This document shows positions 11,465 through 34,804 of a stretch of DNA of 44,991 bases, piece after piece; the stretch's first letter is position 1, and each line of letters starts with the position of its first letter. The position numbers and the translations under genes were made by a program. The stretch lies in the sequence record PZ379602.1. The stretch is one strand, 5' to 3'. The notes beneath the pieces were generated by a model. That model made no database searches and had not been told where the DNA came from. It saw nothing but the letters and a program-made list of their open reading frames with translations. This DNA is from a phage.

Positions 11465-12600
11465 ATGGCAGCAGCAAAGATTACCAACGAGCAATTAATC
11501 GAAGAACTGAAAAACGGCCTTACTAACAAGGCGATTGCAGAGAAGTATGGTATGAACATTCGTAACGTTGAGATTCGTCGCAGTAAGTTGGCTAAGAGTG
11601 GCTTGTTCGGGCATGGTAACGAAGGCATTAAGAAGCTAGTACCGGACGGATACTTGGTAAAAGGCACTTCGACCATGATTGATGCGGATGGGAATGAGAA
11701 GCTGCGTTGGGTTAAGACTTCAATTGATAATGAGCGCCTTGAGATTCTGCTTGAGCAAGCACGAGAGGCATTTTGTTCTGACTTACCAAAGGCAGTTGCC
11801 AGTGAGTGCCCAGACATTGATTTTGATGATGACACGATGGCTATGTATCCGGTTTTCGACCTTCACATTGGCGCAATGGCTCATAAGCATGAGTGCGGTG
11901 AAAACTACGACACTGCAACAGCAGAGAAGGTAATGAATAGCTTCTTTGATTATGCTGTAGATAAGGCTCCTAAATCAATAAATGCGACATTAGTTTTGGG
12001 GGTGATTTTCTGCATTACGACTCTCTAGAGGCTAAAACACCAGCATCAGGACATATCTTAGACAGCGACAGTCGCTATGCTAAATTGGTTTACGTAGCAA
12101 TCCGCTCAGTGCGTCGTGCGGTTTCAAGGATGCTTGAGAAGCACCAAATCATTGATATTAAAGTAATAAGTGGAAATCACGACGAAGCTGGGATGGTTTG
12201 GTTGCGTGCAGCATTGGCGGCATTCTATGAAGACGAGGAGCGAATTACTGTCGACGTAAGCCCAGCAGCAATGCTGATGACAAGCTTCGGCTCAACATTG
12301 ATTGGTTATACTCATGGTCACCAGATGCGAAAAGCTGAAACTCGACTTACAGTAATGGCTACAGACTTTCGTAAACTATTCGGTAACAGCGAATATGTCT
12401 ATACACACTCGGGCCACTGGCATAGTCAGAAAATTACAGAAACAAACCTGGGTATCGATGAAGTTCATGGTCAGCTTGGCGCGCCAGATGCCTATTCAGC
12501 TAATGGAGGATGGCGCTCAATGCGTCAAGCAGCGGTAATCGTTTACCATAAGCGTTTTGGTGAGGTTGGTCGATTTATTTGTCGCCCTGAGATGTTCTAA
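11465..12600 (+). CDS. calcineurin-like metallophosphoesterase with N-terminal HTH domain; split by a frameshift at a G5 run
   Basis: N-terminal HTH-like NKAIAEKYGMNIRNV; motifs DLHIG, GDFLHYD (only after a +1 correction at 11998-12002) and GNHDE; two ORFs 11465..12028 and 12085..12600 in different frames. Confidence 0.6.
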
Positions 12601-14062: not shown

Positions 14063-14278
14063 ATGAGGGAAGTAATTAACGCCGCCACGGCATCAACCGG
14101 CGGAGCCGCTGTAACTGGTGCCGCAACTGGTCAAATGACTATAGCAATAATCAGCCTTGTGGCTCTTGTTGTTTTCGGGCTGTGGGGAGCATATTGGAAG
14201 TTTAAGGACAGTCAGGCAATCAGGAAGGCTCTAGAGTCGGGTGATTTAAAGACAGCTATCAATATTAGGAGTAAGTAA
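14063..14278 (+). CDS. holin (single predicted transmembrane helix)
   Basis: 71 aa from ATG after AGGTGA RBS; hydrophobic stretch IAIISLVALVVFGLWGAYW; charged C-terminus; immediately upstream of the endolysin. Confidence 0.65.
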   Translation: MREVINAATASTGGAAVTGAATGQMTIAIISLVALVVFGLWGAYWKFKDSQAIRKALESGDLKTAINIRSK

Positions 14279-21449: not shown

Positions 21450-21872
21450 ATGAAATTAAGCAAATCTCAAAGGGAAGAGTTGAAGGGCAAGTTCGGTGGT
21501 CGCTGCGCTTATTGTGGGTGTGAACTACCTGAGAAAGGCTGGCATGCTGACCATGTTGAACCGGTGCTACGTAAATCTGAGGTATGCATGAAGGCAGCGG
21601 AGAAAGGAACTTTCAAGCTGAAGGCGACAGGTGAGTTTAATCGACCACAAGCTGATCGAATGGAAAACCTTTACCCTGCATGTGCTCCATGCAACCTCAT
21701 GAAAACTTGCTATTCCCTTGAAATGTTCAGGGAACAGGTGTCTCTTCAAGTCGCTCGCGGGCGTAAGAGCAGCATGAATTTTCGCACGGCAGAGCGGTTC
21801 GGCCTCATCTCCATAGTGGAGGATCCAGTTGTTTTCTGGTTTGAGAAGTTTGAGCAAATTAACAAAATCTGA
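21450..21872 (+). CDS. HNH endonuclease
   Basis: CAYCG...HADHVEP...NLYPACAPCNLMK: Cys pairs flanking His and Asn as in HNH nucleases. Confidence 0.75.
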   Translation: MKLSKSQREELKGKFGGRCAYCGCELPEKGWHADHVEPVLRKSEVCMKAAEKGTFKLKATGEFNRPQADRMENLYPACAPCNLMKTCYSLEMFREQVSLQVARGRKSSMNFRTAERFGLISIVEDPVVFWFEKFEQINKI

Positions 21873-23199: not shown

Positions 23200-23275
23200 G
23201 TTCTGCTGGCGTAACAGGATAACGCAAAGACCTCCTAAGTCTTAGTTACTGGTTCGAGTCCAGTGCGGAACACCA
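23200..23275 (+). tRNA. tRNA-Arg (anticodon CCU, reads AGG), CCA encoded
   Basis: Manual fold: acceptor GTTCTGC/GCGGAAC (one G-U), D stem GCGT/ACGC, anticodon stem AAGAC/GTCTT with loop CTCCTAA, T arm ACTGG-TTCGAGT-CCAGT, discriminator A, CCA. Confidence 0.85.
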
Positions 23276-23812: not shown

Positions 23813-24337
23813 ATGAAAGACGAAAACTTCACCAGTCAGGCGCAAGAAAAGGTCCGCTCTGGCAACTTTAAAGCCATGTACAATAAAAAGTACTCAGACA
23901 TTACAACGCTAGCCAAAAACCGAAGCATGACACCCGAACAGCTATTTGAATTCGCCGTGAAATACTTCTCATGGGCTGAGGACCAGGCAATCAAGGCAAT
24001 CGAGACAGCCAGCTTCCAGGGTGTGGTAAAAGAGAGCCTGGTGCACAAACCACGAGTCTTCACGCTAACCGGATTCTGCCTTTACTGCGGTGTCACCCAT
24101 AGCGCCATCGAGAAATGGAGGAAGTCGGCTGGTTATGATGAGGTGATTGCGTTCATTGATTCCGTGATTCGCGAGCAGAAATACCAGCTTGCAGCATCTG
24201 GCATTGTTAACCCTGGCATGATTTCCAAGGAGCTTGGAATCGACAAACCGCAGGAGATCACTATAAGCAATAACTCTTCTGCTAACGACGTCGAAACGAT
24301 GAAGGAAGCTCTGGAGTCTGTGATTAGTAAGCTGTAA
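23813..24337 (+). CDS. terminase small subunit (by position)
   Basis: 174-aa ORF immediately upstream of the large terminase; strong RBS. Confidence 0.55.
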   Translation: MKDENFTSQAQEKVRSGNFKAMYNKKYSDITTLAKNRSMTPEQLFEFAVKYFSWAEDQAIKAIETASFQGVVKESLVHKPRVFTLTGFCLYCGVTHSAIEKWRKSAGYDEVIAFIDSVIREQKYQLAASGIVNPGMISKELGIDKPQEITISNNSSANDVETMKEALESVISKL

Positions 24338-24457
24338 TAACATGGGGTAGATTGGCGTGATCAAATTAATGAAGGCGTTATTGGTGTATTACATGATGGC
24401 AGCTACATGCTTCACAACTGGATTCTTAATTGGCGTGATGGTTGGATTGGTGAAATT

Positions 24458-26026
24458 ATGGCTAATTTAGTTTGGGAGGAAATGACGCCAGCAGAAAAGA
24501 TGGCGGTTAAGGCGATATCCACTCATAGCTTCGAGGGTTTCTTACGAGTGTGGTTCCAGCTTACCCAGGGAGAGCGATACATACCTAACTGGCACCATAG
24601 ATACCTTTGCAGAATTATCGATGAGATTATTGCTGGTGAGCGTAAGGACACAATCATTAACATCGCTCCTGGCAGTGGGAAGACAGAGATTGCCTCAATT
24701 CACTTCCCAGCCTACTCAATGGTTAAGTTGAGAAAGGTAAGGAACCTGAATATATCGTATGCTGACTCACTGGTTAAGCGTAACTCCAAGCGTGTGCGCG
24801 ACTTAATTAAGTCTGTTGAGTTCCAGGAGTTGTTCCCATGTAAGTTTGGTACGTGTAAGGATGATGAGCTACAGGTCCTGGATGACTATGGCAAGGTCAG
24901 GTTTGAGTCAATCTCTAAAGCCACTGGCGGCCAAATTACAGGCGCGAGGGGTGGATATATAACCGATTCGTATAGTGGTGCGGTACTGTTAGATGATTTT
25001 GACAAACCAGCCGACATGCTTTCTGCTGTTTTTCGCGCTAACAATCACGTGATGCTAAAGAATACAATACGCTCTCGTAGGGCGAGCTCCGTAAAAGGAA
25101 AGGCGACGCCGATTATCTCTATCCAACAGCGCCTTCATGTGAACGATAGTACGTGGTTCATGATGAATGGCGGTATGGGTATTAGCTTCGACTTGATTAA
25201 AATACCGGCGCTCGTAACTGAGGATTACGTCGACACGCTTCCTGACTGGATTAAGCAGCAATTCATTGATGACGTTCTATCAAGCGAATATATTGAGCGT
25301 GATGGTGTTAGGTACTATAGCTATTTCCCTGGCAAGGAATCTGTTCACGACCTAGTTGCAATGTGGGATTCTGATAGCTATACATTCCTTAGCCAGTATC
25401 AGCAAGAACCAGTAGCACTTGGCGGCAACCTGATTAACGTAGACTGGCTTCAACGCATTAGCGACACTCTGCGACCGCCAGCTAAGTACGATTACAGGTT
25501 TATGGTCCTTGATACTGCGATGACAACCAAAAGTTACAGCGACTTTAGCGTCATGCAGCTATGGGGTTATAAGGATGGGAAGATTTATCTGCTTGACCAG
25601 CGGCGCGGTAAATTTGAAGCTCCTGAGCTCGAGGCTGAGTTATTGGATTTCGAGAAGATGGCTAGGGCATCCAATCAGATAGATGGCATCCTTCGTAAAA
25701 TCATCATCGAGAAGAAAGCCTCTGGTATTGGCCTGATTCAATCAGCCGGAAGGGTTATGCGAACGCCTATCGAGCCGTACGTTCCGGATAACGATAAGCT
25801 GACTCGCGTAATGAGTGCATTGCCGCAGATTAAAGCTGGTAACGTAATCCTTCCGGAGTCTGCTACTTGGCTTAATGGCTTGCTAACGGAGATTGCGGCA
25901 TTCACGGCAGATGATTCACATGTTCACGATGACCAGATAGACTGTTTGACAATGGCTGTCAACCTGGTACTGAACATTGCAGAAGACCCTAAATCGAGGA
26001 TGATGCGCCTCGCTGGCATCAAATAG
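24458..26026 (+). CDS. terminase large subunit
   Basis: Walker A-like NIAPGSGKTEI; acidic nuclease-type C-terminal half; start at ATG 24458 (an alternative ATG exists at 24407). Confidence 0.85.
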   Translation: MANLVWEEMTPAEKMAVKAISTHSFEGFLRVWFQLTQGERYIPNWHHRYLCRIIDEIIAGERKDTIINIAPGSGKTEIASIHFPAYSMVKLRKVRNLNISYADSLVKRNSKRVRDLIKSVEFQELFPCKFGTCKDDELQVLDDYGKVRFESISKATGGQITGARGGYITDSYSGAVLLDDFDKPADMLSAVFRANNHVMLKNTIRSRRASSVKGKATPIISIQQRLHVNDSTWFMMNGGMGISFDLIKIPALVTEDYVDTLPDWIKQQFIDDVLSSEYIERDGVRYYSYFPGKESVHDLVAMWDSDSYTFLSQYQQEPVALGGNLINVDWLQRISDTLRPPAKYDYRFMVLDTAMTTKSYSDFSVMQLWGYKDGKIYLLDQRRGKFEAPELEAELLDFEKMARASNQIDGILRKIIIEKKASGIGLIQSAGRVMRTPIEPYVPDNDKLTRVMSALPQIKAGNVILPESATWLNGLLTEIAAFTADDSHVHDDQIDCLTMAVNLVLNIAEDPKSRMMRLAGIK

Positions 26027-31638: not shown

Positions 31639-32034
31639 ATGAACGAACAAGCATTAGCCTTTATGAAGTCGCTGGTTCCTGCTCTTAAGAATATTCCAGA
31701 TGAAACGCTGGACGTATGGCTTGAGTTAGCTAAGCTATACATCTGCACCAGTAAGTTTGGTGATGATGCTTATAAAGCGCTGTCGCTATACACTCTGCAC
31801 ATTGCCTTTCTTGATGGCGCGCTTAAGCAGAATGAGTCGCTGGATGATTATGGCAAGAAGGTGGCAAGTTACTCCCTGAGCGGTGAATTTTCTATCAGCT
31901 ATGAATCCACCTCGCAAACTCAATCATCATTGACAGCTACGCCGTGGGGCCGACTTTACTGGAATCTCCTGCGCAAGAAAGGCGGCGGATTTGGCTTGAT
32001 TACGTCCGCTGGGCGTGAGTGCGGTTGCCAATGA
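31639..32034 (+). CDS. head-tail connector / adaptor protein (by position)
   Basis: 131-aa ORF with ATG after GGAGG RBS. Confidence 0.45.
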   Translation: MNEQALAFMKSLVPALKNIPDETLDVWLELAKLYICTSKFGDDAYKALSLYTLHIAFLDGALKQNESLDDYGKKVASYSLSGEFSISYESTSQTQSSLTATPWGRLYWNLLRKKGGGFGLITSAGRECGCQ

Positions 32035-32402
32035 ATTACTCCCAAGTAGAATCATTAATGCGCACGGGCATCAATATCTTTAGTGATGGCGATGGTACAT
32101 TCACGATGAATACTGGTAAAGGTGGTGTCGAAATTGTTGACGGCGTTGAGGTTCCTGTAGCTGGCGGCACTGCATTAATCAATGGGCTGGTGAGGGAGAT
32201 TAAAACCAGAGATATTGATGGCGAATATATCCAGTTTGGTGACAAGCGTGGAATTTTCACTTCTGAAGTCCCAATCTTGCAGGGCTACAGGATTATAGTT
32301 GACGATGAAACTTACACTGTAGTCGACCCGAGGCCAGTCAAACCAACAGGAACTATAGTGGCTTACAGACCAATTCTAAGGAGGGTTGCTACCTATGGCT
32401 AG
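32019..32402 (+). CDS. head closure / neck protein (by position)
   Basis: 127-aa ORF overlapping the upstream gene. Confidence 0.45.
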   Translation: MRLPMNYSQVESLMRTGINIFSDGDGTFTMNTGKGGVEIVDGVEVPVAGGTALINGLVREIKTRDIDGEYIQFGDKRGIFTSEVPILQGYRIIVDDETYTVVDPRPVKPTGTIVAYRPILRRVATYG

Positions 32403-32832
32403 AAATATTGGTGGGTTGGCTACATTTACGAATAGTATTGCTGATTGGATTGATAGAGCTGATGATAACTTCTCTGATATTGTTTCTGGCACTGTAATTA
32501 AGGCTGCTAACGCCATCGTTGATTTATCGCCTGTTGATACTGGTAGGTTTAAGGCTAACTGGCAGATTACAGCGAACTCCCCAGCCGCTCAGTCTCTGAA
32601 TGATTACGACAAAACAGGTGGAGATACAAAAAGGTATCTGGCAAGGCAAGCTCGAGCTGTGGCTAATTCACCAGCGACAAAGGTTATCTACATAACTAAC
32701 AGGCTTGATTACGCCTCTGACCTTGAGTATGGATCGTCACAACAAGCGCCAGCAGGTGTACTTGGTGTAGTCAATATCCGGCTTGGGCGTTACTTCGAAG
32801 AAGCCGTAGCTGAAGCAAGGAGTAAACGATAA
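32386..32832 (+). CDS. neck / tail-component protein (by position)
   Basis: 148-aa ORF overlapping the upstream gene. Confidence 0.45.
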   Translation: MLPMARNIGGLATFTNSIADWIDRADDNFSDIVSGTVIKAANAIVDLSPVDTGRFKANWQITANSPAAQSLNDYDKTGGDTKRYLARQARAVANSPATKVIYITNRLDYASDLEYGSSQQAPAGVLGVVNIRLGRYFEEAVAEARSKR

Positions 32833-33229
32833 TGCAGTATGAATTATCTTTGGCGGCAAGGAGGTTTGTGACTGATTTGGTTAAAACGTTTCCAGTCAGG
32901 TATCCAATCTCCTATGAAAACGTAGCCTTTTCCCCTCAAGAAATGGCGGCATGTGGCTGAAGTACGATTATACCGAGGCTGACACAGTAACCTATAGCTT
33001 GAGTCGCAAGTGTAAGTATTATGTTGGCATGGTTCAGGTATCTGTCTTTTTCTCACCAGGTGATGGTGTTGATAGTGCGAGGAGAATTGCTAATCAATTG
33101 GCAGAATCAATGCTTGATGGTACAATGCTTGACACAGGCTACATTTATGAGGGCGGAGTAGTTCACCCGGTAGTGAAGTCAAAATCTGGCTGGTTTATTC
33201 CAGTTCGTTTCTATGTTCGTCTTGACTAA
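32832..33229 (+). CDS. tail completion-like protein, apparently split by a frameshift near 32928-32950
   Basis: 42-codon ORF 32832..32960 and ORF 32951..33229 together give about 133 aa; T4 and C4 runs at 32928-32935 are candidate sites. Confidence 0.4.
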
Positions 33230-33239
33230 AAGGTTGCAA

Positions 33240-33725
33240 ATGAAAGAGTTCTTAAATTCTCTTTACGATTATCGCGATGGTCAAATCTTTCATAAAGGAG
33301 GTTCAAAGCCATGTGGGTATGGAAAGCCTAACGGATACATTCAAACTTACGTCTCAAAGACTGGTAAGAAGTATGTTCACAGGATTATTTGGACAATGCA
33401 TAATGGAGACATCCCAGAAGGCATGCAAATTGACCATTTAAATGGCAATAGGAGCGACAACCGCATTGAGAATTTAAGGTGCGCATCAGTAACTGAAAAT
33501 AGAAGAAATTCAGGAACGAAATATAGGTATCGTAGATTCCCTGGTGTTAATGGTGTAAACTACAATAAGCGCGATAATCTTTGGCATGCAATGATTTCTG
33601 ATAATGGCGTAGCTAAGAGCCTTGGTCATTACAAGTCATTTGTTAGTGCATGTGAAGCTAGAATTATCGCAGAAGTAAATCTTGGATACCACGTAAATCA
33701 CGCGATGCGTGATAGCGTATATTAA
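33240..33725 (+). CDS. free-standing HNH homing endonuclease with AP2-like DNA-binding domain
   Basis: HRIIWTMHNG...QIDHLNGNRSDNRIENLRCASVTENRRN is an HNH motif; C-terminal YRGV-like region; inserted between tail completion and major tail genes. Confidence 0.8.
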   Translation: MKEFLNSLYDYRDGQIFHKGGSKPCGYGKPNGYIQTYVSKTGKKYVHRIIWTMHNGDIPEGMQIDHLNGNRSDNRIENLRCASVTENRRNSGTKYRYRRFPGVNGVNYNKRDNLWHAMISDNGVAKSLGHYKSFVSACEARIIAEVNLGYHVNHAMRDSVY

Positions 33726-33734
33726 CTTAACTCT

Positions 33735-34412
33735 TTGAATTGGAGGTGTATTATTGCCCATCTCAGCAATGGCACTCAGGTCTTCGTAGAAGGCACTAGG
33801 GGAGCTGCTATCGACGTAACCGCAATTTCCAACGCGGTTAATCCTGTTTTAACTTTGTCCAGCGTTGCAGATATTGCACGCGGTGACTACCTGTTGTTTA
33901 CCAGCTCCGCTTCAACTCTGCTGGCTGATAAGCAAGTTCGCGTTACCGCAGTGTCTGGTTCAACCGTAACTGTTGAAGGTATTGACACCTCCAGCACCAC
34001 CAAGTTCCCGGCCGGTTTAACTGGTGAAGTGGTTAAGATTCTTAGCTGGTTTGAGGTTCCTTGCGTTCAGGACGTATCCACTGACGGCGGCGAACAGCAG
34101 TTCGTTAACTTCCAGTGTTTATCCGATGACCGTGAGCAACAGATTCCAACTTATAAATCTGCGGTAACTAATACCTACACTTTCGCGCACGAATACACCA
34201 ACCCGATATATCCGATTCTGCGTAACTATGACGAAGCTGGTACTGTTGTTGCTATCCGTCTGTTCGTACCTCGCGCTAGTGAGATGCGTCTTCAGTCTGG
34301 CACTATCGCTTTCAACGACACGCCGAGCATTGGTGTTAACGAAATCGAAACGGTATCCATTGCGGTATCTATTCGCGGCAGGCTGAGTTCTGTAGCTTCT
34401 GAACTGGCATAA
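33735..34412 (+). CDS. major tail protein (start codon uncertain)
   Basis: Thr/Ser/Val-rich 225-codon frame; no in-frame ATG near the GGAGG RBS at 33742-33746. Confidence 0.55.
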   Translation: MNWRCIIAHLSNGTQVFVEGTRGAAIDVTAISNAVNPVLTLSSVADIARGDYLLFTSSASTLLADKQVRVTAVSGSTVTVEGIDTSSTTKFPAGLTGEVVKILSWFEVPCVQDVSTDGGEQQFVNFQCLSDDREQQIPTYKSAVTNTYTFAHEYTNPIYPILRNYDEAGTVVAIRLFVPRASEMRLQSGTIAFNDTPSIGVNEIETVSIAVSIRGRLSSVASELA

Positions 34413-34418
34413 AAATTA

Positions 34419-34441
34419 ACCCTCTTCGGAGGGTTTTTTAT
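34419..34441 (+). terminator. rho-independent terminator after the major tail gene
   Basis: Hairpin ACCCTC-ttcg-GAGGGT followed by T6. Confidence 0.7.
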
Positions 34442-34443
34442 TG

Positions 34444-34505
34444 ATAGCACTTTTTGTTAAAGGCTAAGTCGCGGATTGCTGTATAGTTCATTCATCGAAA
34501 AGAAA
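34444..34505 (+). promoter_or_regulatory. modular promoter-like element inside the tail module (box ATAGCACTTTTTGTTAAA, TATAGT, CATCGAAAAGAAA)
   Basis: 22-bp spacing; leader box 5 nt after the hexamer. Confidence 0.5.
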
Positions 34506-34520
34506 TGAGAGATTAATGAA

Positions 34521-34769
34521 ATGAACAACGTTAAAAATATCATCAAACTTGCTGCTGCTCTTGGTGCTTTCTACCTGGCAATTCAGATTGTCAACCCAAC
34601 TGGTGGCGCAACCGCTAACTCTGATGCAATAAAGTATGAACATGAATTTAATAGTGCATATTCTCATTGTGAAAAAGTAGCTGGCGATAAGACAAATCAG
34701 ATTCTGCATTATGGTCGCGAGGTGTGCACCGAAGTTGCTCACAACATTGTAAAAAACGAATCAAAGTAA
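34521..34769 (+). CDS. small secreted protein with predicted signal peptide (82 aa), moron-like
   Basis: N-terminal hydrophobic segment IIKLAAALGAFYLAIQIV; own promoter-like element; located between the major tail and chaperone genes. Confidence 0.5.
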   Translation: MNNVKNIIKLAAALGAFYLAIQIVNPTGGATANSDAIKYEHEFNSAYSHCEKVAGDKTNQILHYGREVCTEVAHNIVKNESK

Positions 34770-34804
34770 TATAATCATTCAACACAAACAAAGGAGATAA
34801 CGAG

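What the first reader, a model, noticed from the sequence alone, without database searches (positions are those of the whole stretch)
33240..33725. Free-standing HNH-AP2 homing endonuclease inside the tail module; three endonuclease-type elements in total
An HNH nuclease with an AP2-like DNA-binding tail is inserted between the tail completion and major tail genes. Together with the HNH gene at 21450..21872 and the LAGLIDADG intein, the phage carries three homing-type elements. The insertion borders a split gene (32832..33229) and a major tail gene without a clear start codon, suggesting local disruption by the element.
Basis: partly seen in the sequence, partly recalled or inferred. Interest (0 to 1): 0.45.

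Follow-up and report, generated by a model that had tools for sequence, protein, structure and literature searches.

The report
HNH-AP2 homing endonuclease beside tail-tube gene
A small selfish nuclease gene of a well-known kind sits between two tail genes of this E. coli phage; it did not break its neighbours, but the piece of DNA that carries it has replaced the normal ATG start of the essential tail-tube gene with a rare ATT start.

Summary
The ORF at 33240..33725 is real. It is a 161-aa I-HmuI-like HNH nuclease (Pfam HNH_3, E 1.5e-23) with a C-terminal domain that folds like AP2. It lies in the spacer between the tail terminator gene and the major tail (tube) gene of an Rtp-like coliphage (Drexlerviridae). 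Close relatives (ES, Rao1, IMM-001, IME542) lack it precisely; others carry it at the same site. It belongs to the described HNH+AP2 homing endonuclease class.

The "split gene" 32832..33229 was not caused by the element. It is a 1-base loss (CC to C, about 32936), one of at least seven single-base indels in this assembly, six of them homopolymer contractions. Near-identical contigs with the same HNH have the gene intact.

The missing start codon of the tube gene is real and linked to the element. Every allele whose HNH is 60% or more identical reads GGAGGTG-N4-ATT (one has ATC) where HNH-free phages read ATG. Three genomes have no in-frame canonical start upstream of the conserved N-terminus. 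Two HNH-less isolates (DTL, MM01) keep this ATT segment as a scar.

The "LAGLIDADG intein" is a split intein with a free-standing LAGLIDADG gene between its halves.

The parts
33240..33725 (+). Free-standing HNH-AP2 homing endonuclease gene (161 aa). Residues 1-45 form an N-terminal beta region, about 46-90 the HNH beta-beta-alpha-metal core (D65 H66 N74 N78 N87), and 106-148 the AP2-like three-strand sheet plus helix.
   Evidence: Pfam HNH_3 E 1.5e-23. phrog_99 E 1e-44. I-HmuI 1U3E is the best PDB match by sequence and by fold. AF2 pLDDT 89.7. Invariant residues. dN/dS 0.04-0.15 between alleles.
33234..33755 (+). The whole inserted segment (522 nt). It replaces the 10 nt 'AAAATATATG' of HNH-free relatives. 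The left junction follows GACTAAAAGG (33224..33233). The right junction precedes GCCCATCTC (33756...).
   Evidence: Alignment with Rao1, IMM-001, IME542 and RobRod40. Junction tables. GC about 39% against 44-51% in the flanks.
33228..33233 (+). AAAAGG: the native ribosome-binding purine tract of the tail-tube gene in empty alleles. Here it lies 6 nt before the HNH ATG.
   Evidence: Empty alleles read GACTAAAAGGAAAATAT-ATG; the window reads GACTAAAAGGTTGCAA-ATG.
33742..33748 (+). GGAGGTG, a perfect Shine-Dalgarno sequence carried at the 3' end of the inserted segment.
   Evidence: Identical in all alleles whose HNH is at least 60% identical and in the DTL and MM01 scars.
33753..33755 (+). ATT, the inferred AUU start codon of the major tail protein. 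It sits exactly where HNH-free phages have ATG, with 6 nt between GGAGG and the codon.
   Evidence: tblastn places residue 1 of the ES tail protein at 33753. The codon is ATT in 9 HNH+ assemblies and 2 scar alleles, and ATC in L015. phiEB49, L015 and DTL have no canonical in-frame start upstream of the conserved N-terminus.
33753..34412 (+). Major tail (tube) protein gene, Phage_tail_3, 219 codons counted from the ATT.
   Evidence: Pfam E 2e-67. 95.9% aa identity to phage ES over residues 1-219. In the first 35 codons dN is well below dS.
33735..33737 (+). In-frame TTG, 18 nt upstream of the ATT. Gene callers use it as the start (225 aa). There is no Shine-Dalgarno sequence in front of it. This is the rival start.
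   Evidence: Present in the window, RobRod40, L013, L016-18 and MM01. Absent in phiEB49, L015 and DTL.
32832..33229 (+). Tail terminator gene (Phage_tail_terminator_5), read as two ORFs because one base is missing near 32936 (CCCCTCCAAG has become CCCCT-CAAG).
   Evidence: The gene is an intact 132 aa in L010, L011 and L012, which carry the identical HNH.
34418..34443 (+). Intrinsic terminator after the tail-tube gene. None lies between the terminator gene, the HNH and the tube gene, so the HNH is inferred to be transcribed with the late tail operon.
21450..21872 (+). Second HNH gene, of the zinc-finger HNH type. Present in ES and AN_ECEAS; absent at this place in Rao1, TR2, TR3 and CY1.
6713..9582 (+). 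Fractured helicase gene. It consists of helicase-N plus IntN, then a free-standing LAGLIDADG ORF (7350..8204, in another frame), then IntC plus helicase-C. In this assembly it is further broken by four 1-nt indels.

Best explanation
33240..33725 encodes a free-standing homing endonuclease of the HNH+AP2 class (I-HmuI-like HNH_3 core, AP2-fold DNA-binding tail).

Shown:
- The gene is part of a 522-nt segment that replaces the 10-nt spacer and ATG between the tail terminator gene and the major tail gene of a Braunvirinae (Rtp-like) coliphage.
- The segment is absent, with clean junctions, from the closest relatives. It is present at the same site in two Drexlerviridae subfamilies, and its presence is patchy on the tail-gene tree.
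- The ORF is under strong purifying selection.

Inferred:
- In a mixed infection the enzyme nicks or cuts the empty allele around ...GACTAAAAGG/AAAATATATGGCCCATC.... Repair from the HNH+ genome then copies the segment in.
- Its own allele is immune because the segment splits and rewrites that site.

The segment brings replacement translation signals. The HNH uses the former tail-gene purine tract plus an ATG. The tail-tube gene is now served by a perfect GGAGGTG and, with 6 nt after GGAGG, ATT (ATC in one lineage). The tube protein is therefore most likely initiated at AUU/AUC.

The HNH ORF can be lost while this 3' end stays behind, as in the DTL and MM01 scar alleles. Such an allele would be HNH-less and presumably cleavage-resistant.

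The split tail terminator gene is an unrelated single-base error in this assembly.
For: Identity.
- Pfam HNH_3 E 1.5e-23.
- Invariant D65/H66/N74/N78 and N87 conserved in at least 90% of 82 homologues.
- I-HmuI is the best solved relative by sequence and by fold (E 4.7e-4, prob 1.0).
- An AP2 fold follows the HNH core. Homologues at 36-45% identity score Pfam AP2.
- No group I intron is present in the window.

Presence/absence.
- Rao1, IMM-001, IME542 and ES lack exactly this segment.
- RobRod40, phiEB49, L010-L018 and L027 carry it at the same site.
- Relatives at 46-54% identity sit in other genomic contexts. The family has 1279 phage records.
- On the tail-gene tree HNH+ and ATG alleles are interleaved.
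- L010 is identical to the window from 32184 to 33820 and then diverges to 88-91% identity inside the tail gene.

Selection: dN/dS 0.04-0.15 with saturated dS.

Start codon.
- Junction tables.
- phiEB49, L015 and DTL have no in-frame ATG, GTG or TTG upstream of the conserved N-terminus.
- The N-terminal codons vary synonymously, with dN well below dS.
- GenBank and RefSeq annotators truncated the gene to 184 aa (phiEB49) and 130 aa (DTL).

Split gene is an artefact.

The class is known. The HNH+AP2 'IPA-HNH' homing endonucleases were found often, though less consistently than T5orf172 ones, near essential phage genes (PMC10448857).
Against: - No cleavage, nicking or homing has been shown for this protein or any close homologue. 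The target site is inferred only from the junctions.
- Divergence of the HNH roughly tracks that of the tail gene (81/89, 70/62 and 60/60% aa identity to the window for RobRod40, phiEB49 and L015). Much of its history is therefore vertical, and strong purifying selection could equally mean domestication.
- AUU is reported as an exceptional and weak start: 6-8 times below AUG in a reporter (PMC3592434). That is odd for one of the most abundant virion proteins.
- In the ATT alleles a +1-frame TTG (33754..33756) lies 7 nt after GGAGG and could compete.
- The window and several relatives have an in-frame TTG at 33735.
- The more distant allele L027 has the HNH at this site with a normal ATG.
- The Pfam AP2 score is below threshold.
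Confidence: 0.8

Rival explanations
1. Domesticated nuclease. The HNH-AP2 gene is a long-resident, vertically inherited gene kept because it helps the phage, for example by excluding co-infecting relatives or nicking DNA. It would no longer be an actively homing selfish element.
For: dN/dS is 0.04-0.15 with saturated synonymous divergence. The site is the same in two subfamilies, and HNH divergence parallels tail-gene divergence. No terminator separates the gene from the late tail operon.
Against: The gene is dispensable: the closest relatives (ES, Rao1, IME542) and the scar alleles (DTL, MM01) lack it. Its distribution is patchy among near-identical tail genes. Members of the same family are scattered over many other sites and occur in several copies per genome in relatives. 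The two readings do not exclude each other.
Confidence: 0.2
2. The insertion damaged its neighbours, leaving a split tail terminator gene and a tail-tube gene that has lost its start, so the phage is locally defective.
For: In this window the terminator gene reads as two ORFs, and the tube gene has no ATG at its conserved N-terminus.
Against: The frameshift lies about 290 nt from the junction. It is a 1-nt contraction, absent from L010, L011 and L012, which carry the identical HNH. The window has six more single-base indels, including in the capsid and helicase genes. The ATT arrangement is conserved in four isolated, propagated phages, and the coding sequence downstream of it is under constraint.
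Confidence: 0.03
3. The tail-tube protein does not start at AUU. It starts at the in-frame TTG at 33735, possibly by re-initiation after the HNH stop codon 9 nt upstream, giving a protein with six extra residues (MNWRCII-AHL...).
For: The TTG is in frame and present in the window, RobRod40, L013, L016-18 and MM01. Gene callers choose it. UUG is a commoner start than AUU.
Against: There is no Shine-Dalgarno sequence before the TTG; the GGAGGTG would lie inside the coding region. The TTG is missing in phiEB49, L015 and DTL, which keep GGAGGTG-N4-AT(T/C). In MM01 and DTL there is no upstream HNH ORF to re-initiate from. The extra codons are conserved as nucleotides, not as varying synonymous codons.
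Confidence: 0.2
4. The HNH is a packaging-associated HNH working with the terminase, as in HK97-type phages, and not a homing enzyme.
For: Some siphophages do need an HNH for DNA packaging (general knowledge).
Against: It is not next to the terminase genes (23813..26026) and is absent from the closest viable relatives. It is of the I-HmuI/HNH_3+AP2 type, whereas terminase-associated HNH proteins are, from general knowledge, of the Pfam PF01844 type.
Confidence: 0.02

Closest known systems
HNH+AP2 homing endonucleases of phages ('IPA-HNH' of Barth et al. 2023, PMC10448857; the class they cite as previously identified in protists, cyanobacteria and phages)
   Same: N-terminal HNH_3 nuclease with a C-terminal AP2-fold DNA-binding domain. 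Free-standing, next to an essential structural gene, and variably present among relatives.
   Different: Barth et al. name Barbaviruses and Flaumdraviruses as the lineages where the class is abundant, not T1/Rtp-like phages. No paper found here describes this insertion site or the replacement of the neighbour's start codon.
I-HmuI (PDB 1U3E), the intron-encoded HNH nicking endonuclease of Bacillus phage SPO1
   Same: Best solved match by sequence (E 0.0067) and by fold (Foldseek E 4.7e-4, prob 1.0). It shares the N-terminal beta region followed by the DH...N...N HNH core.
   Different: I-HmuI is encoded in a group I intron and, from the literature as I recall it, ends in helical/helix-turn-helix DNA-binding modules. 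This protein is free-standing, with no intron, and ends in an AP2 fold. Whether it nicks or cuts both strands is unknown.
HNH endonuclease genes of Escherichia phages RobRod40 (WWD13273.1) and phiEB49 (gp45, YP_009018659.1)
   Same: Orthologues at the same site, with 80.7% and 70.4% aa identity and the same GGAGGTGTATT-ATT junction.
   Different: They sit on different backbones (phiEB49 is Rogunavirinae). Both are annotated only as 'HNH endonuclease'. Their tail genes are annotated from the TTG or from a downstream ATG.
AUU-initiated E. coli genes infC and pcnB
   Same: An AUU codon at the start position behind a Shine-Dalgarno sequence. AUU is described as exceptional and weak (PMC3592434).
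   Different: In infC and pcnB the weak start limits or autoregulates a low-abundance protein. Here it would serve one of the most abundant virion proteins. Nothing is known about any dependence on IF3.
Fractured genes: a split intein with a free-standing endonuclease gene between the halves (Dassa et al. 2009, PMC2677866). This applies to the helicase locus, not the HNH.
   Same: The helicase is broken into an N-part plus IntN and an IntC plus C-part, with a separate endonuclease ORF between them.
   Different: The endonuclease here is LAGLIDADG_2. The main text of that paper does not mention LAGLIDADG. The loci here are in cultured coliphages (ES, AN_ECEAS), not marine metagenomes.

Membership tests
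HNH_3 / I-HmuI-like HNH endonucleases | Match to the family profile above the curated threshold | tested here: met
   PF13392 at 82.5 bits against a cut-off of 24.8, covering the full model 1-46.
HNH_3 / I-HmuI-like HNH endonucleases | Conserved catalytic and metal-binding residues of the beta-beta-alpha-metal motif (DH...N...N) | tested here: met
   D65, H66, N74 and N78 are invariant and N87 is at least 90% conserved in 82 homologues. They align with DHKDGNKDNN...N of I-HmuI. The catalytic roles of the I-HmuI residues are taken from memory of the literature.
HNH_3 / I-HmuI-like HNH endonucleases | Fold similarity to a solved member | tested here: met
   Foldseek top hit is 1u3e_M, E 4.7e-4, prob 1.00, using a model with pLDDT 89.7.
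HNH_3 / I-HmuI-like HNH endonucleases | Site-specific DNA nicking or cleavage | not testable with these tools
   Needs purified protein and an empty-site substrate.
AP2/ERF DNA-binding domain | Match to Pfam PF00847 above the gathering score | tested here: not met
   15-17 bits against 33.3; E 0.006-0.03; only the first 27-34 of 54 model positions match. Homologues at 36-45% identity do carry PF00847 hits.
AP2/ERF DNA-binding domain | Three-stranded antiparallel sheet packed on one helix, similar to solved AP2 domains | tested here: met
   Strands at 106-109, 114-121 and 124-131, and a helix at 134-148. Foldseek hits 1gcc_A (TM 0.72 per target, prob 1.0), 3igm_B, 7et4/7et5, 7wq5 and 5wx9. E-values are only 0.04-0.35 because the domain is small.
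Free-standing homing endonuclease gene (mobile element) | Precise presence/absence polymorphism at one site among close relatives | tested here: met
   (empty) against (occupied).
Free-standing homing endonuclease gene (mobile element) | Distribution incongruent with the host-gene phylogeny, and mosaic boundaries next to the element | tested here: met
   HNH+ and ATG alleles are interleaved on the tail-gene tree. L010 is identical to the window up to 33820 and diverges afterwards. General recombination could also give this pattern.
Free-standing homing endonuclease gene (mobile element) | Not embedded in an intron or intein | tested here: met
   It is intergenic, with its own ATG and ribosome-binding site. 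The only Rfam hit in the window is one tRNA.
Free-standing homing endonuclease gene (mobile element) | The enzyme cleaves the empty allele and is copied into it (super-Mendelian inheritance) | not testable with these tools
   Needs cleavage assays and phage crosses.
Genes initiated at AUU/AUC | No canonical in-frame start is available; a near-cognate codon lies at proper spacing from a Shine-Dalgarno sequence; the sequence just downstream is under coding constraint | tested here: met
   phiEB49, L015 and DTL have no in-frame ATG, GTG or TTG upstream of the conserved N-terminus. All have GGAGG-N6-AT(T/C). In codons 2-36 dN is well below dS.
Genes initiated at AUU/AUC | The protein N-terminus or initiating ribosomes mapped to that codon | not testable with these tools
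   Needs N-terminal sequencing, mass spectrometry, or start-site ribosome profiling.

The most novel reading that the evidence does not exclude
The DNA segment that carries this homing endonuclease has rewired translation of an essential, very abundant virion protein. It replaced the tail-tube gene's AUG with AUU/AUC behind a perfect Shine-Dalgarno sequence. This state has been kept through saturating synonymous divergence in two phage subfamilies, and it persists after the nuclease ORF is lost (DTL, MM01).

The change would not then be a neutral accident. It would be selected, either as part of the cleavage-immune allele (it removes the G of ATG|GCCC in the presumed target) or as a device that sets the tube-protein dose.
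Probability: 0.3. Interest if true: 0.6.

Novelty: new member of a known kind. Interest (0 to 1): 0.32.

Why it matters
The nuclease itself is ordinary. HNH+AP2 homing endonucleases next to essential phage genes are already described, and orthologues are annotated in GenBank.

Three by-products have practical value.

1. Annotation. In HNH+ and scar-bearing Drexlerviridae the tail-tube gene is mis-annotated in public records: truncated to 130 or 184 aa, or extended to a TTG. The cause is the non-canonical ATT/ATC start.

2. A natural allelic series at one locus: empty ATG, HNH+ ATT, and HNH-lost ATT scar. The ATT scar alleles and most other alleles come from cultured coliphages. This gives a ready system for testing the invasion, fixation, loss and resistance cycle of homing endonucleases. 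It also allows a test of how a strong Shine-Dalgarno sequence compensates for an AUU start on a highly expressed gene.

3. Data quality. This assembly has frequent single-base indels, mostly homopolymer contractions, so 'split genes' in it should not be read as biology.

Tried and rejected
- Stop-codon read-through or an HNH-tail fusion. The HNH and tail ORFs share a frame, separated by one TAA, in the window, RobRod40 and phiEB49. They do not in L013 or L015, so the idea was dropped.
- Programmed frameshift in the tail terminator gene. Rejected because near-identical contigs have the extra C and the window has many similar indels.
- RNA structure at the HNH/tail junction. Window 33700..33800 folds no better than shuffles (z 0.03).
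- Terminal inverted repeat of the segment (33237-50 with 33729-42, 86% complementary) and a hairpin over the HNH start (33240-50 with 33283-93). Repeats of this size are common in the region (12 pairs in 1.8 kb), and by eye they are not conserved in RobRod40. Treated as chance.
- Group I intron or other RNA. The only Rfam hit in the window is one tRNA.
- Own promoter or terminator for the HNH. Only consensus-level promoter-like hits at the background rate, and no terminator before 34418.
- Pattern searches for more ATT alleles. In IMG/VR only DTL and phiEB49 were found, plus two unrelated hits. The three hits in JGI metagenomes were all unrelated.
- The search for related loci with the tail protein returned only 8 loci, so the ATG/ATT survey rests on about 25 sequences. 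The length pattern of 89 BLAST hits was not checked one by one.
- Flank identity as a co-conversion signal. The last 140 nt of the terminator gene are 100% identical between the window and the HNH-free ES and Rao1. That stretch is conserved in all relatives, so it is uninformative.
- Packaging-HNH idea. Rejected on position, family and dispensability.
Full report
WHAT IS THERE

The window is an essentially complete genome of an Rtp-like coliphage (Drexlerviridae, Braunvirinae). The best matches in the phage collection are phages ES, IMM-001, TR2, AN_ECEAS and Rao1, at 83-90% nucleotide identity over the late region.

Around the finding the gene order is:
- head closure gene, 32019..32402
- tail completion/Neck1 gene, 32386..32832
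- tail terminator gene, 32832..33229 (read as two ORFs)
- the ORF in question, 33240..33725
- major tail (tube) gene, ending at 34412
- an intrinsic terminator at 34418

The ORF therefore lies between the tail terminator gene and the tube gene, not directly after the tail completion gene.

THE ORF

It encodes 161 aa. Pfam HNH_3 matches over its full length (E 1.5e-23, 82.5 bits). PHROG 99 'HNH endonuclease' gives E 1e-44.

In an alignment of 82 homologues, H47, D65, H66, N74, N78, L79, R80 and G129 are invariant, and N87 and N90 are at least 90% conserved. The only significant solved relative by sequence is the nicking homing endonuclease I-HmuI (1U3E). Its DHKDGNKDNN...N stretch aligns with D65-H66...N74...N87.

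An AlphaFold2 model built on that alignment is confident (mean pLDDT 89.7). It shows an N-terminal beta region, the HNH core, a poorly ordered linker at residues 91-100, and then three strands (106-109, 114-121, 124-131) and a helix (134-148). Foldseek against the PDB ranks I-HmuI first (E 4.7e-4, prob 1.0). It then lists AP2 domains:
- PF14_0633 (3igm)
- AtERF1 (1gcc; TM 0.72 normalised to the target, prob 1.0)
- TEM1
- WRINKLED1
- ERF96

Pfam's AP2 model itself scores only 15-17 bits, against a threshold of 33.3. 'AP2-like' is therefore supported by fold and by family context, since many homologues score AP2. It is not supported by a passing profile match. There is no intron signature: the only Rfam hit in the window is a tRNA.

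IS IT AN INSERTION?

Yes. Rao1, IMM-001, IME542 and ES read ...GTTCGTCT(T/A)GAC TAA AAGG AAAATAT ATG GCC CAT CTC.... That is a 12-13-nt spacer between the terminator gene's stop codon and the tube gene's ATG.

The window reads ...GACTAAAAGG | TTGCAA ATG...(HNH)...TAA CTTAACTCTTTGAATTGGAGGTGTATT ATT | GCC CAT CTC.... So 522 nt (33234..33755) replace 10 nt. The segment has about 39% GC, against 44-51% in the flanks.

The same gene at the same site is found in:
- RobRod40, 80.7% aa identity
- phiEB49, 70.4% aa identity, which belongs to a different subfamily, Rogunavirinae
- several metagenome assemblies (L010-L018), 60-100% aa identity
- a distant phage, L027, 50% aa identity

Homologues at 46-54% identity sit in early-gene regions of other phages. 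The family has matches in 1279 phage records, and RobRod40, phiEB49 and DTL each show three to five matching places.

On a neighbour-joining tree of the tube protein, HNH+ and HNH-free alleles are interleaved. RobRod40 is sister to IME253 (ATG). The window clade is sister to ES (ATG). A clean ATG spacer cannot be regenerated by simple deletion of the segment, so the patchiness requires horizontal movement of one allele or the other.

One assembly, L010, is identical to the window from 32184 to 33820 and drops to 88-91% identity inside the tube gene. This is a recombination boundary about 65 nt past the segment.

The HNH alleles differ mostly at synonymous sites (dN/dS 0.04-0.15, dS saturated), so the protein is functional and old at this locus. 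All this fits a free-standing homing endonuclease of the described HNH+AP2 class (Barth et al. 2023, PMC10448857). Enzymatic activity and homing remain inferences.

THE 'SPLIT GENE'

The two ORFs 32832..32960 and 32951..33229 are the two halves of the tail terminator gene. They are separated by a 1-nt deletion relative to every relative examined (...TCCCCT-CAAG... against ...TC(T/C)CC(T/A)CCAAG...). The deletion lies about 290 nt upstream of the insertion.

Three contigs encode the identical HNH protein at the same site. One of them, L011, differs from the window at only 22 of 6483 aligned bases. All three have the extra C and an intact 132-aa terminator gene.

Compared with these contigs and with AN_ECEAS, the window has six more single-base indels:

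| Position | Change in the window | Location |
|---|---|---|
| 31093 | A7 to A6 | splits the capsid gene |
| 31281 | T7 to T6 | intergenic T-run |
| 7281 | A5 to A4 | helicase region |
| 9008 | C6 to C5 | helicase region |
| 9558 | G3 to G2 | helicase region |
| 9290 | +1 base (not a homopolymer contraction) | helicase region |

Together with 32936 that makes seven single-base indels, six of them homopolymer contractions, in about 10 kb compared. This is the signature of sequencing error, not of damage by the element.

THE MISSING START CODON

In ten assemblies with an HNH at least 60% identical, the codon aligned with the ATG of empty alleles is not ATG. Nine read ATT: the window, L010, L011, RobRod40, L016, L017, L018, L013 and phiEB49. 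One, L015, reads ATC. In every case GGAGGTG precedes it, with 6 nt between GGAGG and the codon.

An in-frame TTG 18 nt upstream (33735) exists in the Braunvirinae alleles, and gene callers use it. It has no Shine-Dalgarno sequence before it. phiEB49, L015 and DTL have no in-frame ATG, GTG or TTG between the preceding stop codon and the conserved N-terminus AHL(S/A)NG(T/S)Q.

The codons that follow vary synonymously between alleles:
- GCC/GCT/GCA
- CAT/CAC
- CTC/TTA
- AGC/TCA
- AAT/AAC
- GGC/GGA

Over the first 35 codons dN is well below dS (for example 0.04 against 0.53 for L013 compared with DTL). These codons are therefore translated. The simplest reading is initiation at AUU/AUC.

Public annotations instead truncate the gene to 184 aa in phiEB49 and 130 aa in DTL, or start it at the TTG.

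AUU is described as an exceptional start in E. coli, with infC and pcnB as the examples, and as 6-8-fold weaker than AUG in a reporter (PMC3592434). Its use for a very abundant structural protein is unexpected. The perfect Shine-Dalgarno sequence may compensate. In the ATT alleles a +1-frame TTG (33754) opens an 11-codon ORF and might compete for ribosomes. This TTG is absent in L015.

SCAR ALLELES

Two isolated phages without the HNH keep the 3' end of the segment:
- DTL: GAC TAA ATTAACTCATTTATTTGGAGGTGTATT ATT GCT...
- MM01: GAC TAA ATTAACTTATTGAATTGGAGGTGTATT ATT GCT...

The retained ATTAAC matches the last bases and stop codon of the HNH ORF (...TAT TAA C...). This favours loss of the ORF by deletion over a pre-insertion variant, although the evidence is only a few bases.

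Whichever origin is correct, two things follow. The ATT start works without an upstream HNH ORF. And the locus shows three states expected in a homing-endonuclease life cycle: empty and susceptible, occupied, and empty but rewritten. The more distant L027 allele has the HNH with a normal AAGGAG...ATG. The ATT is therefore a trait of one lineage of the segment, not of the site.

MECHANISM, WITH SHOWN AND INFERRED STEPS KEPT APART

Shown:
- the domain make-up and conserved catalytic residues
- precise replacement of the spacer
- patchy distribution
- purifying selection
- the ATT/ATC plus strong Shine-Dalgarno arrangement
- the scars

Inferred:
- The AP2 tail and the N-terminal sheet bind a target spanning the terminator gene's stop codon and the tube gene's first codons.
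- The HNH core nicks or cuts it. I-HmuI-type enzymes nick, from my memory of the literature.
- Recombinational repair copies the segment in.
- The occupied and scar alleles are immune because the target is split or rewritten.
- The G-to-T change in ATG|GCCC may contribute to immunity. This is pure speculation.

THE OTHER TWO ELEMENTS

The gene at 21450..21872 is an intact zinc-finger-type HNH (CxxC...HADH...N...CxxCN; phrog_2118, E 7e-55). It is shared with ES and AN_ECEAS and is missing at that place in Rao1, TR2, TR3 and CY1.

The 'LAGLIDADG intein' is something else. The helicase is broken in motif II (DE|CH) into three ORFs:
- ORF1: helicase-N plus IntN (CLTGDTMI...TSTH..., then a stop)
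- ORF2: a separate LAGLIDADG_2 ORF in another frame (7350..8204)
- ORF3: IntC (...VWDIEMPEHHNFIADGVVAHN|C) plus helicase-C

The same three gene calls recur in independent, divergent assemblies (274/235/549 aa and 269/236/557 aa). All homologues of the LAGLIDADG ORF are stand-alone proteins of 167-294 aa, mostly 230-290. Rao1 has an uninterrupted 664-aa helicase.

This matches the 'fractured gene' arrangement of Dassa et al. 2009 (PMC2677866).

VERDICT

- The interpretation of 'local disruption' is wrong for the split gene, which is an assembly error.
- The element is a new member of a known kind.
- The AUU/AUC start on the tube gene, its linkage to the endonuclease segment, and the scar alleles are modestly novel. 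They can be tested directly in cultured phages.

Noticed in passing
window 6713..9582 (also L007, L037, L038, L039): The helicase carries a split intein, not a contiguous one. It reads N-part plus IntN, then a free-standing LAGLIDADG_2 ORF in another frame (7350..8204), then IntC plus C-part. This 'fractured gene' arrangement is conserved in independent divergent assemblies. The intein sits in helicase motif II (DE|CH). Rao1, TR2 and CY1 have an uninterrupted helicase.
   Followed up: partly
window 7281, 9008, 9290, 9558, 31093, 31281, 32936: Single-base indels, six of the seven being homopolymer contractions, relative to near-identical or 97%-identical relatives. They split the helicase, major capsid and tail terminator genes. 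The assembly appears to have about one such error per 1-2 kb. Other short or truncated ORFs (for example 11465..12028, which matches only the first half of a DNA repair exonuclease PHROG) may have the same cause.
   Followed up: partly
DTL NC_047893 21789..21820 (L031 about 890..921); MM01 MK373793 about 14105..14134 (L032): Two HNH-less isolates keep the 3' end of the HNH segment (ATTAAC...TTGGAGGTGTATT-ATT) in front of the tail-tube gene. This is a scar of endonuclease loss, with the ATT start retained. RefSeq annotates the DTL tube gene as a truncated 130-aa protein.
   Followed up: yes
window 33754..33789: In the ATT alleles a +1-frame TTG, 7 nt after GGAGG, opens an 11-codon ORF (TTG CCC ATC ... 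TCG TAG) that overlaps the start of the tube gene. It could compete with the AUU for initiating ribosomes. It is absent in L015, the ATC allele.
   Followed up: no
window 34441..34462 and 6626..6647; phiEB49 L005 about 2427..2448; L015: The 22-nt motif TTGATAGCACTTTTTGTTAAAG occurs just after the tube-gene terminator and, with 3 mismatches, in the divergent regulatory region upstream of the helicase (0 expected by chance). In phiEB49 and L015 the same motif lies between the tail terminator gene and the HNH, followed there by a GC-rich hairpin. It may be a shared promoter or regulator-binding site.
   Followed up: no
L010 compared with window 33821..34800: A contig with the identical HNH and identical upstream genes diverges to 88-95% identity starting about 65 nt into the tube gene. 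This is a recombination boundary right beside the element.
   Followed up: partly
window 21450..21872: A second, zinc-finger-type HNH gene lies in the early/middle region. It is shared at 98.6% nt identity with ES and AN_ECEAS, where it is annotated 'DNA repair ATPase', and is absent at that position in Rao1, TR2, TR3 and CY1.
   Followed up: partly
ES L006 875..1351; Rao1 L001 1..521; L013 432..1061: Relatives carry further HNH(-AP2) genes at sites that are empty in the window. One lies between the small and large terminase genes (ES). Another lies directly after the major capsid gene (Rao1, L013, phiEB49). The same structural module has several alternative endonuclease insertion sites.
   Followed up: no
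window 23200..23272: One tRNA gene (Rfam RF00005, 58.9 bits) lies upstream of the small terminase gene.
   Followed up: no
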